Shown here in pieces: positions 1-3,000 of a stretch of 64,000 bases of DNA (its first letter is position 1; each line of letters starts with the position of its first letter). Source of the DNA: a virus (Duplodnaviria; Heunggongvirae; Uroviricota; Caudoviricetes). The position numbers are program-made. Where the stretch lies: IMG/VR virus record IMGVR_UViG_2718218449_000002; one strand, given 5' to 3'.

Positions 1-3000
1 ATGGAAAAAGACCTGAAAGAGTTGCGGGAATACCTATTACTTTCCCCCGTCTATTCTGAAATTAACGATTGTCTGGCTAGTCTCTCAATGGAAGACGTGA
101 CCAATGAAGAGTTCGCGGAACGTTTGGGAATTGCTCCTGATTGGATGGATGCTATAGATACTAGCCAACTTGCTTAAGAAAGGATGCGCCATTGCTGGGC
201 GCGTTTCTCATTTCTCCCGTAGCACTACGCATACCTTCTAATAAATTTCACCATCAAAATCAGTAGATTGATAAAATGTCACTCAAATCTGTCATAAGTA
301 TCACAATTTTTAAACCTAATTGAAATATAATGTTATTAGATATTATCTAATGGAGGTAGTTTAATGTCTTATGCGTTGATTGATAATGCTTCGTTAACAG
401 CAGTCGAAAGAACACTGGGTGATATTCTTGTTAAGAATCCAGATACTATTAACGGAGATTTAGTCGCTTTTGAAAATCTTATTCAAGCGATACTTTTTTA
501 CGATACCCTGATCTGTGTAGATAATTATAAAAAAGAATATAGAGATAAACGCATTGCTAAATTTGACTTTATTAAATTTGTATCTGAAAGTGATTTTCAA
601 CTCAGTGAACTTGATCAGTTAGCACAAGTTGAATCTCGGCAAATTACTTCCGAAATTAGAGGTGGGGAGTTTGTTGACGATGATTTTAGGCAACTTGTAG
701 AGATGCTTAAGCTGAATATGATTTGCACATGGGATCTTCGGTCTAGCGTGTATTACTTAACAATGAAAATGCTTGGTCAGCCCGGTACTCCTGAATATGC
801 GAAATATAGTGAACTAAGTGCATCGATTTTTAATGAATTATCAGATGCTTCTGATACGAAAGGGTACTGGTCAACCGATGTGAAGCTAGTGAGTTCATCT
901 GGACATGAATATACTGAGCGTGAATTTGAACTAGAAAGGGAAAAATCTACTCGCGGTAAAGGAGGTATGACTCGTTCACTTGAAATGTTTATCGCATCGC
1001 TAAATTGGTTGGCATATAAATCTATTTATTACAGCGTCATTGCTAAGCATTTTAAAGCAGACTCATTTATTCATCCAATAAGGCATGCATATCAATTGCA
1101 TTGGATGAAAAAAACAGGTGCTTTTGGTCATGATTATACTGCAAGGTTGGTGCAATCGTTGTCTGATAAAATCAGTACTGCAAGATCTGAAATTGTAGAT
1201 CATGGACGCACATCTACTATTTCATTAGATTTACCAATATTTTCTGCATGGCTAGCAAACGAAACAGGAAATGTCTCTCAAGTTATCAATTCAGCTTTAG
1301 AGCTTAGAACACATGATCATTTTCGTACGTGTCGAGATGTAATCCGAGAGATTCATGTGACCTACGATGAATCGGGGATAAGTGCAGGAAATAAAAAAGT
1401 AACAAAATTACTAAGTGATTTAGATAAAATATCTGGAGATATTAAACGAAGCTACGGTGTTCCATCAAATCAAGGTATTCAAGGCAGTTTTTTGATAAAA
1501 TGTATAAATTCATTGACAGGACTCGTGGGTATTCCAGGTTTGCCTGATAAAGAGTTTGCACTGAGCACTCCTGAATTTATGAAGTCTAAACAACATAAAG
1601 CATTTTCTACCGTTTTCAAGGATGTTACTAACGAACTAACAAGCATTGAACGTTTAGGTGGGCTTCGGGATAAATTAGCGTCGAACTTTACTATTGATGA
1701 TTCTTATTATACCGAGCCAAAAACAGAGGATCCGAGATTCCGTTACGTAAGTAGTAATTGGAAGCAGCCAATGTAGATATAGTTAAATGTATAATTATAA
1801 GTAATAACAATTTACAGACATTATTGAATTAAAAATATTGCGTTAGGGTATAATATCTAACGCAATTAGATTGAAAAGTTAATTAAATAGTTAGTCAGAG
1901 CTAACTTCTTGTATTGTTAGTTACACTGCCTAACCTACAGACAAAAAGCCCCTCAGAATTGTGCTTACGCGCTCAAATTTCACTGCTGGGGATTTTTACG
2001 TACATTCAACCCAAAAAGTGACCAAAAAAGTTCTTACAGAGTTGACGTTACGTTGACGTTGTTTTCTGAAAATGATCCCTTGGTGACTTATTTTATGTAT
2101 TTGATTTTACGTTTTTTCTTTAATGTTTTATCACTTTAAACTAACGTCAACTTATCCTTATAGAGCGATTAATTTCTATAAGTACTTTTTCTCAAAATTT
2201 GATTTTTACGGATGGAAGTCCATCAAAGAAACGTCATTTTTTTCTAAGACTTTGATCTTTCGTTAACGGTGTTAGTGGGGACTTCGGTCGTCGAGCGCGA
2301 TGCGCTTCTGACCGTTTCAATGGATAGGTTCGCCTTCTTGCGCCTCTCGCGGCGTTTGCCGCGCTCCGCGCTTTTGGCGGTTTGGCAGGCATATCTCTCT
2401 TATTATTGGTCGTTTTTTGCACCGCCTTGTCACGATCTGTCACTACTAGTAGTAATGGTCATAACCTCCGCTTTCTCTTTTGGCTCTGGATGCTCTCACT
2501 CGTGCTCTTCTTAACATCCTTAACAGTGGGTGGGTTTGTACTTTGTTCGAGTTTATTATCTGTGAGGATAGTAATTCCCTGCGCTCTGTCTCTGCCTCTT
2601 TGGTGACCGCTATCACTGATAAATCCCAATCGTGTTTGCTAATTAACGGTGCTTGGAACGGGGTGATTGGTGATCGATTTATGTCTTGTCGTTTCAATGT
2701 ACGCTGTATCTGTCGCTTAGCTTTGTAGTTGTCTTTCCTTGATGCCTGAACGGCTTTTAGTATGCGTCTTACAGCATGAAAGCCAGTGATAGAAAGTGTT
2801 TCTTTTTTTATCTCATGCCGCGCCCAGCCATTCGAATAACCCCAAACGTTGGCATCTGACCAATCATATAGGCTCTTGCTCGCCTCTCTATTAAAGTCAT
2901 TTAACTTAGTTTCGGGCTTTGCCATGTAATCAATCTGTTTACCTATACACTTTGTAGGCTCTGAATATTGCTGACCTTTCAAATCTAGATCCCACTGGGG

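What the first reader, a model, noticed from the sequence alone, without database searches (positions are those of the whole stretch)
215..1776. AT-rich 470-aa orphan gene with its own promoter and terminator inside the intS-associated element
The ORF is visibly lower in GC than its neighbours, sits between a terminator and hairpins, has a near-consensus RBS and a TATAAT box, and shows no family signature I recognise. Stand-alone AT-rich cargo genes in prophage ends are frequently abortive-infection or other defence genes. Two R-x(5-6)-H patterns (IRHAYQLH, RDVIREIH) are HEPN-like but too short to rely on.
Basis: inference. Interest (0 to 1): 0.6.

Follow-up and report, generated by a model that had tools for sequence, protein, structure and literature searches.

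The report
Unnamed single-gene cargo in defence hotspot
The 470-residue gene is real, conserved and self-contained, has no recognisable family or fold, and sits in a slot of a small mobile element where other E. coli strains carry anti-phage genes, so it is a good but untested candidate for a new phage-defence protein.

Summary
A 470-aa ORF lies at 364-1776 with a GGAGG ribosome-binding site, a TATAAT box, a terminator-like hairpin upstream and a hairpin downstream. Its GC is 0.36, against 0.43-0.46 in the flanks.

It is not an orphan. About 318 clusters (50% identity) of the same ~470-aa architecture occur across Proteobacteria, Firmicutes, Bacteroidota, Chloroflexi and Spirochaetes, under strong purifying selection (dN/dS about 0.07-0.10).

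In O157 the gene (ECs3238) is not P22-like prophage cargo. It occupies the variable slot of a truncated argW-integrated element that encodes a rolling-circle Rep and a serine recombinase. In other E. coli the same slot holds GAPS6 (validated anti-phage) or genes annotated SIR2, HNH endonuclease, AAA ATPase, GTPase and others.

Homologues are integron cassettes in Vibrio and Stutzerimonas, or sit among defence genes in Salmonella and Leptospira.

Best reading: a new stand-alone defence protein. The biochemistry is unknown and no phenotype has been tested.

The parts
1..177 (+). 58-aa ORF (ECs3239), part of the conserved flank of the cargo slot, next to a serine recombinase that lies just upstream of the window
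   Evidence: ORF. Annotated. The flank is 92-94% identical in sister elements L048, L049 and L051 up to window position 48 (L051) or 208-243 (L048, L049). PHROG 35119, unknown function.
182..206 (+). Terminator-like hairpin after the 58-aa ORF; the last conserved feature before the cargo begins
   Evidence: 9-bp stem, 5 GC pairs, T-rich tail. Similarity to L048 ends at 208 and to L049 at 243.
244..1904 (+). O157-specific cargo segment (outer limits 209-1938): promoter region, gene and downstream hairpin
   Evidence: Breakpoints of similarity to sister elements. GC 0.342. Window 323-1879 is 81% identical at DNA level to the Dickeya solani copy.
326..331 (+). TATAAT -10-like hexamer; no good -35
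   Evidence: Sequence. Not called by the promoter scan. GATAAT in Dickeya and GACAAT in Salmonella.
352..356 (+). GGAGG ribosome-binding site, 7 nt before the ATG
   Evidence: Invariant in three genera.
364..1776 (+). 470-aa protein (ECs3238, WP_000119352.1), 53.4 kDa, soluble. It has an N-terminal alpha/beta domain (about 1-140) carrying most conserved polar residues, then a mixed alpha/beta and helical region with a long helical hairpin (318-364).
   Evidence: identity; family; conservation; model, pLDDT 82.7, pTM 0.86; dN/dS 0.07-0.10; no TM segment.
1837..1866 (+). Perfect 10-bp hairpin downstream of the stop codon; possible transcript end or stabiliser
   Evidence: Conserved with one G-T wobble in Dickeya. 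No T-run, so not called as a terminator.
1939..2445 (.). AT-rich non-coding region that belongs to the backbone of the rolling-circle-Rep element. It contains the direct repeats GTTGACGTT x2 (2041-2060); their role as an origin is an inference.
   Evidence: 93-95% identity to about 225 non-O157 E. coli genomes from window position about 1905-1939 onward. Repeats.
2446..3141 (-). Truncated rolling-circle replication-associated protein gene (ECs3236; RefSeq CDS 215 aa against 350 aa in intact elements)
   Evidence: Full-length homologues annotated. Similarity ends at window 3164.
3124..5973 (+). Remnant of a P22/Sf6-like prophage that abuts the truncated element: needle-knob fragment, DUF2824, gp7, and a gp20 N-terminus fused to an acyltransferase C-terminus
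   Evidence: Pfam hits. Annotation ('prophage Sp16; P22-like').
6148..7341 (-). intS integrase of the P22-like remnant
7470..7541 (-). tRNA-Arg (argW), the shared integration site

Best explanation
ECs3238 is the single-gene cargo of a variable 'accessory' slot in a small argW-integrated mobile element.

**The element.** Its backbone is: tyrosine integrase, regulators, rolling-circle Rep, [cargo], 58-aa ORF, serine recombinase. In the O157:H7/O55:H7 lineage the integrase-to-Rep half was lost and a P22-like prophage remnant now abuts it.

**The protein.** It is most likely a stand-alone anti-phage (or anti-mobile-element) defence protein of a family that no searched library names or models, moved between phyla as a self-contained promoter-gene-hairpin unit and as an integron cassette.

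**Proposed mechanism (inference, low confidence).** The N-terminal alpha/beta domain presents a cluster of invariant acidic residues: D7, D32, E37, D47, D53. Invariant basic residues may join them: R16, K56 and R63, plus R240 and R324 from the helical part. This composition suits a metal-dependent site acting on a phosphate-containing substrate (nucleic acid or nucleotide). The helical C-terminal region with its protruding hairpin would then sense or gate activation on infection.

**Shown:** gene reality, selection, distribution, cassette status of homologues, the hotspot location, and the absence of any known family or fold.

**Inferred:** the defence role and all of the biochemistry.
For: **1. 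Hotspot**
- Conserved flanks bracket different cargo in 550 E. coli genomes: the 470-aa gene (317 genomes), an 825+330-aa pair (148 genomes), and genes annotated SIR2 family protein, AAA ATPase, HNH endonuclease, GTPase, ParA-family protein and GapS6a/GapS6b.
- GAPS6 is experimentally protective against phages (bioRxiv 10.1101/2023.03.28.534373).

**2. Homologue contexts**
- A V. vulnificus superintegron cassette lies near a Lit-type peptidase and ParE/Phd.
- In Stutzerimonas it is the first cassette next to an IntI-like integrase. Both are flanked by attC-like TAAC...GTTA hairpins.
- A Salmonella island carries AbiGi, Mrr and a TerB/BrxC-D/helicase module.
- A Leptospira array carries Shedu SduA_C, an NADase and a toxin-antitoxin pair.
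- Within 3.5 kb of homologues in 25 of 30 further species, neighbours include HamA x2, Cap4 nuclease x2, TIR x2, LmuA x2, OLD/GajA-like x2, AbiLi x2 and DUF4365 x4.

**3. Stand-alone unit**
- No neighbour is conserved across loci.
- All 150 listed relatives, of 318 found, are the same ~470-aa protein or fragments of it, with no fusions seen.

**4. Horizontal transfer**
- Gene GC is below flank GC in most loci.
- One cluster at 90% identity or more is shared by Stutzerimonas, V. cholerae, Shewanella and Vreelandella.
- Copies lie on P. aeruginosa megaplasmids and a Clostridium plasmid.

**5. Functional gene**
- dN/dS is 0.07-0.10.
- ECs3238 is reported 11.8-fold induced in spinach root exudate (PMC4940412).

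**6. Conserved polar residues**
- They concentrate in residues 7-63, plus R240 and R324.
Against: - No phage-resistance, toxicity or biochemical data exist for any member.
- No HMM of a known or candidate defence system matches: PADLOC 2023 and NCBIfam 2026.
- Several homologues sit in ordinary-looking chromosomal contexts: Dickeya near ars genes, Aeromonas after recBCD, Bacillus after groEL, Blautia among sugar genes.
- The near-versus-far neighbour comparison did not show clear enrichment: 83 versus 74 PADLOC models matched. The far set may still lie inside islands, so this comparison is uninformative rather than contrary.
- The hotspot also holds a ParA-family gene, which need not be defensive.
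D105 and D124, which a PIN-type site would need, are D in only 33/65 and 41/65 of the most diverse members.
Confidence: 0.55

Rival explanations
1. It is accessory cargo with a non-defence role, for example a stress- or niche-related enzyme, an inter-bacterial competition factor, or an addiction-type toxic protein. On this view it merely shares the mobile-element slot and the integron route with defence genes.
For: - Integron cassettes and island slots also carry acetyltransferases, toxin-antitoxin pairs and metabolic genes.
- About half of the individually inspected homologue loci show no recognisable defence gene within 10 kb.
- ECs3238 transcription responds to plant root exudate.
- No defence HMM matches.
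Against: - Most cargo types seen in the same E. coli slot carry names typical of defence components: GAPS6, SIR2, HNH, AAA ATPase, GTPase.
- Known defence genes recur near homologues in unrelated phyla.
- No partner gene (immunity, antitoxin, secretion) is conserved next to it.
- The protein has no signal peptide or TM segment.
Confidence: 0.27
2. It is a PIN-like, metal-dependent RNase/nuclease fused to a regulatory helical domain, acting as a toxin or abortive-infection effector. This is a specific version of the defence reading.
For: - The N-terminus reads like PIN motif 1 (ALIDNxxLT after strand 1).
- The secondary-structure order is beta1-alpha-alpha-beta2.
- Acidic residues D7, D53, D105 and D124 have PIN-like spacing, and there is a T-x-D motif at 122-124.
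Against: - No Pfam PIN-clan hit for the protein or for 65 diverse relatives.
- hhalign of the N-domain profile against a VapC(fMet) profile gave probability 0.1%. That template was narrow (73-98% identity).
- D105 and D124 are not conserved in the most divergent members, whereas D32 and E37, which have no PIN counterpart, are invariant.
Confidence: 0.12
3. It is a HEPN-type RNase, as the first reader tentatively suggested from two R-x(5-6)-H patterns.
For: The strings IRHAYQLH (239-246) and RDVIREIH (324-331) are present. Both arginines, R240 and R324, are invariant in the family.
Against: - The histidines are not conserved. Position 246 is H in 28/122 and N in 80/122. Position 331 is H in 7/122 and E in 57/122.
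- No HEPN family in Pfam or PADLOC matches.
Confidence: 0.02
4. It is a backbone function of the mobile element (replication, partition or transfer accessory) or of the P22-like prophage, not cargo.
For: It lies next to the Rep gene, and one sister element has a ParA-family gene in the same place. Sakai's annotation places it inside 'prophage Sp16; P22-like'.
Against: - The same backbone, at 93-95% identity, carries unrelated genes in the slot.
- Homologues occur without any Rep, integrase or phage genes nearby.
- tblastn against 50,697 phage genomes gave no match.
Confidence: 0.04

Closest known systems
Hotspot cargo of E. coli mobile elements (P2/P4 hotspots, integrase-only defence islands; Rousset et al. 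2022, PMC9122126; Hochhauser et al. 2023, PMC10121019)
   Same: Conserved mobile-element backbone at a tRNA gene. One slot has interchangeable, mostly single- or two-gene, AT-rich cargo, and that cargo includes a validated defence system (GAPS6).
   Different: The backbone is neither P2 nor P4. It encodes a rolling-circle replication-associated protein, a tyrosine integrase at one end and a serine recombinase at the other. I found no description of this element as a hotspot in the papers searched. In O157 it is a truncated remnant.
Integron-cassette defence genes (sedentary chromosomal integrons as defence biobanks; bioRxiv 10.1101/2024.07.02.601686)
   Same: Close homologues (70-81% identity) are single-ORF cassettes flanked by attC-like sites in the V. 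vulnificus and Stutzerimonas arrays. Members of a >=90%-identity cluster occur on ~1.07-1.09-Mb V. cholerae contigs.
   Different: The O157 copy is not in an integron and has its own -10/RBS region. Only the abstract of that preprint was seen, and I found no report of a member of this family being tested.
GAPS6 (GapS6a/GapS6b), the validated system that occupies the same slot in other E. coli
   Same: Same position between the Rep gene and the small ORF plus serine recombinase. Both are cargo of mobile islands.
   Different: No sequence relationship: NCBIfam, the library NCBI's pipeline uses and under which the GapS6 genes of these records are named, gave no hit. GAPS6 has two genes (110 + 1094 aa), and GapS6b has TPR and PINc domains. 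ECs3238 is one 470-aa protein.
VapC/PIN-domain nucleases (PF01850; e.g. PDB 1w8i, 3tnd)
   Different: No profile similarity. Two of the four expected acidic positions are variable. There is a 330-residue C-terminal extension and no antitoxin partner.

Membership tests
HEPN RNases | Conserved R-x(4-6)-H catalytic motif | tested here: not met
   R240 and R324 are invariant, but His at 246 occurs in 28/122 and at 331 in 7/122 sequences. No His is conserved at +5 to +7.
HEPN RNases | All-alpha HEPN fold or profile match | tested here: not met
PIN-like nucleases | Sequence or profile similarity to PIN-clan families | tested here: not met
   No Pfam PIN-clan hit. hhalign against the VapC profile gave probability 0.1% (narrow template).
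PIN-like nucleases | Four conserved acidic residues at the C-terminal ends of the strands | tested here: inconclusive
   In the 122-sequence alignment: D7 99%, D53 88%, D105 84%, D124 94%. In the 65 most diverse members D105 is 33/65 and D124 is 41/65. Spatial clustering could not be checked.
PIN-like nucleases | PIN fold (five-stranded parallel sheet, order 3-2-1-4-5) | tested here: inconclusive
Known or candidate anti-phage systems (PADLOC-DB 2.0, NCBIfam 20.0) | Match to a system's protein HMM | tested here: not met
   0 PADLOC families for the protein and only stray single hits at E>0.01 among 65 relatives. NCBIfam gave only two spurious hits at E>0.03.
Defence-hotspot cargo of a mobile element | Conserved flanks with interchangeable gene content between them | tested here: met
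   Flanks are 92-96% identical. Similarity stops at window 208-243 and resumes at 1905-1939. At least 8 different cargo types occur in 550 genomes.
Defence-hotspot cargo of a mobile element | Known defence systems among the alternative cargo | tested here: met
   GapS6a/GapS6b occupy the slot in two sampled strains, and GAPS6 is validated. Other cargo is annotated SIR2 family protein, HNH endonuclease, AAA ATPase and GTPase. These last four rest on annotation names only.
Integron gene cassette | Single ORF bounded by attC sites in an array next to intI | tested here: met
   Met for homologues only. L007 lies next to an IntI-like integrase, and L003 and L007 are flanked by TAAC...GTTA imperfect palindromes that fold as attC-like hairpins. 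The O157 copy is not in an integron; its downstream hairpin has the wrong arm order for attC.
Anti-phage defence / abortive infection protein | Reduces phage plating or causes infection-dependent growth arrest when expressed | not testable with these tools
No paper in the library reports a phage-related or other functional test of ECs3238 or WP_000119352.
P22-like prophage gene | Homologues in P22-like or any sequenced phage genomes | tested here: not met
   tblastn against 50,697 phage records gave no match. PHROG 13435 matches but has no assigned function.

The most novel reading that the evidence does not exclude
ECs3238 founds a new family of one-protein immune modules. Its fold combination has no relative among solved or viral predicted structures. 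Integrons and small tRNA-integrated elements have spread it across at least five bacterial phyla. Its catalytic site (D7/D32/E37/D47/D53 with R16/R63/R240/R324) would perform a chemistry not yet seen in defence. The argW rolling-circle-Rep element would itself be an undescribed defence-cargo carrier in E. coli.
Probability: 0.35. Interest if true: 0.65.

Novelty: new variant of a known kind. Interest (0 to 1): 0.5.

Why it matters
- **A test-ready candidate.** If it is a defence protein, it adds a compact single-gene system. The 1.7-kb segment carries its own expression signals and has a model confident enough to guide mutagenesis. It would be present in the sampled O157:H7 genomes (317 of 5,426 complete E. 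coli genomes, all O157:H7/O55:H7 among those listed), where it could affect phage therapy, phage-based detection and Stx-phage traffic.
- **A mineable hotspot.** The small argW element with a rolling-circle Rep swaps cargo in one slot. The 825+330-aa pair found in 148 genomes and several singly annotated genes are further untested candidates.
- **If it is not defensive.** It remains a strongly conserved, widely transferred protein with no detectable relative of known structure, which is of interest for fold and function discovery.

Tried and rejected
- **Family libraries.** Pfam, NCBIfam, PADLOC and PHROGs on the protein, and Pfam and PADLOC on 65 diverse relatives. Only PHROG 13435 matched, and it has no assigned function.
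- **PDB by sequence.** Single protein and family profile: nothing.
- **First structure model.** Built from 47 close homologues, it was poor (pLDDT 58.8) and was not used. The second, built from 122 diverse sequences, was good.
- **PIN test.** hhalign of the N-domain against a VapC profile was negative. The VapC alignment I could build was narrow (73-98% identity), so this is a weak test.
- **HEPN.** Rejected on conservation.
- **Conserved partner gene.** Rejected. The small upstream and downstream ORFs in Dickeya, Stutzerimonas and Salmonella are unrelated to each other.
- **attC remnant in O157.** Rejected. The arm order of the 1837-1866 hairpin is wrong.
- **Near-versus-far neighbour control.** Not discriminating. 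Only aggregated counts were returned, so no per-locus defence score could be computed.
- **The search for related loci.** The broad alignment failed for lack of a conserved stretch, so the close-subfamily alignment was used.
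Full report
**1. What is in the sequence**

- The ORF runs from 364 to 1776 on the + strand and encodes 470 residues.
- A GGAGG lies 7 nt before the ATG, and a TATAAT hexamer lies at 326-331.
- The simple promoter scan did not call that site, because no acceptable -35 precedes it.
- A terminator-like hairpin at 182-206 closes the upstream 58-aa ORF.
- A perfect 10-bp hairpin lies at 1837-1866, downstream of the stop codon. It has no T-run.
- GC is 0.362 for the ORF, against 0.43-0.46 for flanking DNA and 0.489 for the whole window.
- The protein is soluble: 53.4 kDa, pI 5.9, no hydrophobic segment of transmembrane strength.

**2. Where the window comes from**

- The region is identical to E. 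coli O157:H7 chromosomes.
- The gene is ECs3238 in strain Sakai. It is annotated as hypothetical, inside 'prophage Sp16; P22-like' next to argW. In RefSeq it is WP_000119352.1.
- Among 5,426 complete E. coli genomes it occurs in 317. It is always single-copy and chromosomal, at 99% identity or more, and all sampled carriers belong to the O157:H7/O55:H7 lineage.
- A microarray study lists ECs3238 as induced 11.8-fold in spinach root exudate, so it is transcribed (PMC4940412).

**3. It is not an orphan**

- A first search found 233 relatives. The best 120 are full length (about 466-472 aa) and 54-85% identical. They come from Dickeya, Vibrio, Salmonella, Shewanella, Pseudomonas, Aeromonas, Undibacterium and Chromobacterium.
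- An exhaustive profile search of 1.84 billion representatives found 318 clusters at E<=0.001. All 150 listed are the same ~470-aa protein or fragments of it, with no fusions seen.
- A search seeded with distant members reached Bacillus, Brevibacillus, Paenibacillus, Blautia, Pedobacter, Flavobacterium, Kouleothrix and Leptospira.
- Every name given by any source is 'hypothetical' or 'uncharacterized'.
- dN/dS against the Dickeya, Salmonella and V. vulnificus copies is 0.07-0.10. This is a functional gene under strong constraint.

**4. No known family and no known fold**

- Pfam, NCBIfam (June 2026) and PADLOC (2023) give nothing for the protein. Pfam and PADLOC also give nothing for 65 diverse relatives.
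- PHROG 13435 matches end to end but has no assigned function.
- tblastn against 50,697 phage genomes finds nothing.
- PDB sequence searches with the protein and with a family profile find nothing.
- A model built on 122 diverse sequences is confident: mean pLDDT 82.7, pTM 0.86.
  - It shows an N-terminal alpha/beta domain, about residues 1-140.
  - A mixed region follows, with a long helical hairpin at 318-364.
  - The conserved C-terminal tail (S-x-W-K-x-P-M) is modelled as a short confident strand (467-469), which may pack back onto the body.
- Foldseek finds no significant match in PDB (best E 0.18, TM 0.12) or in BFVD (best E 0.3).

**5. The HEPN and PIN ideas**

- HEPN. The histidines are not conserved: H246 in 28/122 and H331 in 7/122. 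HEPN is rejected.
  - In favour: the N-terminus (ALIDNxxLT after strand 1), the beta-alpha-alpha-beta start, and acidic residues D7/D53/D105/D124 resemble PIN motifs.
  - Against: no PIN-clan Pfam model matches.
  - Against: hhalign of the N-domain profile against a VapC profile gives probability 0.1%.
  - Against: D105 and D124 vary in the most divergent members, while D32 and E37, which have no PIN counterpart, are invariant.
  - I keep PIN-like as a minority hypothesis.
- What the conservation does show is a concentration of invariant acidic and basic residues in residues 7-63 (D7, N8, R16, D32, E37, D47, D53, Y55, K56, R63), plus R240 and R324. That composition suits a metal- and phosphate-binding site. 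Whether these residues meet in space could not be checked.

**6. The genomic setting is the strongest evidence**

- Window 1939-3164 is the AT-rich spacer plus ECs3236. It is 93-95% identical to DNA in about 225 non-O157 E. coli genomes, where the gene is annotated 'rolling circle replication-associated protein'.
- In those strains the element is intact at argW. Its order is: tRNA-Arg, tyrosine integrase, several small regulators, Rep (350 aa), a variable segment, a 58-68-aa ORF, a serine recombinase, then csc or dsdC.
- Pairwise comparison places the breakpoints at window 208-243 and 1905-1939. The O157-specific segment is therefore about 1.7 kb and holds just this gene with its upstream and downstream signals.
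- Alternative cargo in the same slot:

| Cargo in the slot | Where seen |
|---|---|
| 470-aa ECs3238 | 317 genomes (O157:H7/O55:H7) |
| 825-aa + 330-aa hypothetical pair | 148 genomes |
| SIR2 family protein (826 aa) | sampled strains |
| AAA family ATPase | sampled strain |
| HNH endonuclease | sampled strain |
| GTPase-domain protein | sampled strain |
| ParA-family protein | sampled strains |
| GapS6a/GapS6b | two sampled strains |

- GAPS6 was shown experimentally to protect E. coli against phages.
- In O157 the element has lost everything from the integrase to the N-terminal part of Rep (ECs3236 is 215 aa). It is joined at about 3164 to a P22/Sf6-like remnant: a needle-knob fragment, DUF2824, gp7, a gp20 N-terminus fused to an acyltransferase C-terminus, and intS.

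**7. Contexts of homologues elsewhere**

- V. vulnificus: a single-ORF cassette in the superintegron, near a Lit-type peptidase and a Phd/ParE pair.
- Stutzerimonas: the first cassette beside an IntI-like integrase.
- Both are bounded by TAAC...GTTA imperfect palindromes that fold like attC sites.
- Members at 90% identity or more to the Stutzerimonas protein occur on ~1.07-1.09-Mb V. cholerae contigs, a size that would fit chromosome 2, and in Shewanella and Vreelandella.
- Salmonella: an island with AbiGi, Mrr, CbtA/CbeA and a TerB/BrxC-D/helicase module.
- Leptospira: a one-directional gene array with Shedu SduA_C, an NADase, RelA/SpoT and a toxin-antitoxin pair.
- Dickeya, Aeromonas, Bacillus and Blautia: single insertions among ordinary genes.
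- No neighbour is conserved across these loci.
- Thirty further species were sampled.
  - ORFs within 3.5 kb, drawn from 25 of these loci, include HamA x2, Cap4 nuclease x2, TIR x2, LmuA x2, OLD/GajA-like x2, AbiLi x2, DUF4365 x4, ParE x2 and integron integrase x2.
  - ORFs 5.5-10 kb away also include HamB/HamA, PD-T4-6 and AbiTii. This control does not discriminate.
- The gene's GC is below that of its flanks in most loci.
- The O157 and Dickeya copies share 81% DNA identity from the -10 box to the downstream hairpin. The unit that moves includes its own signals.

**8. Interpretation**

- The best-supported reading is a stand-alone anti-phage or anti-mobile-element protein of a family that none of the searched libraries names or models. 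It rides in a cargo hotspot and in integrons.
- I put this at about 0.55. The evidence is location and distribution only, and roughly half of the individually inspected loci are uninformative.
- The main rival, at about 0.27, is some other accessory role.
- The biochemical proposal is inference from residue conservation only. It posits a metal-dependent site acting on a phosphate-containing substrate in the N-terminal domain, controlled by the helical part.

**9. Novelty and score**

- Stand-alone defence cargo in mobile-element hotspots and integrons is a known kind.
- This family, its fold and the argW rolling-circle-Rep carrier are, as far as my searches show, not described.
- It is a well-defined, easily testable candidate rather than a surprise, so I score interest at 0.5.

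Noticed in passing
window 1939-3164, with intact sister elements L048 3400-14160, L049, L050, L051, L052: A small (~10 kb) argW-integrated element. It has a tyrosine integrase, HTH and MerR-like regulators, a rolling-circle replication-associated protein, one variable cargo slot, a small ORF and a terminal serine recombinase. It is present in about 550 of 5,426 complete E. coli genomes. I did not find it described as a defence-cargo carrier. Whether it is a satellite, an integrative mobilizable element or something else is open.
   Followed up: partly
L048 5251-8717 (E. coli DA33137): The commonest non-O157 cargo of the same slot is a pair of hypothetical proteins of 825 and 330 aa, found in 148 genomes. 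It is unannotated and a further untested candidate system.
   Followed up: no
window 2041-2060 and 2101-2113: Direct repeats GTTGACGTT-AC-GTTGACGTT, with a degenerate third copy, lie in the AT-rich spacer downstream (3') of the truncated Rep gene. They are conserved in sister elements and may be the replication origin or Rep-binding site of the element.
   Followed up: no
window 4837-5973: One ORF fuses the N-terminal ~217 residues of a P22 gp20-type injectosome protein to the C-terminal part of an Acyl_transf_3 (O-antigen acetylase-like) membrane domain. This marks an internal deletion in the P22-like remnant. The low-GC tail (0.28-0.36) starts near 5400.
   Followed up: partly
window 7662-8906 and onward (L001 21737-30400): Directly on the other side of argW, a second tyrosine integrase opens a lambdoid prophage (Ant, Ea22-like, exonuclease, MT-A70 methyltransferase). 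argW therefore carries elements on both sides in this strain.
   Followed up: no
window 1-177 (ECs3239) and L050 2648-2854: The small acidic ORF between the serine recombinase and the cargo is kept in the sampled sister elements except L051, as 58 or 68 aa in two sequence variants. It has no family beyond PHROG 35119. It could be a regulator of the recombinase or of the cargo.
   Followed up: no
L022, L023, L028 (Pseudomonas), ORF about 5741-9710 just upstream of the homologue: In three sampled Pseudomonas loci the homologue lies immediately downstream of the same ~1,320-aa ORF. SMC_N matched 4 of the near-set ORFs, but which ones is not known. This may be a conserved chromosomal insertion site or an adjacent Lamassu/Wadjet-like system, and it was not resolved per locus.
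   Followed up: no
plasmid hits H46-H48 (P. aeruginosa megaplasmids, ~495-501 kb): A ~60%-identical copy lies on three P. aeruginosa megaplasmids. It is split into two places and may be frameshifted.
   Followed up: no
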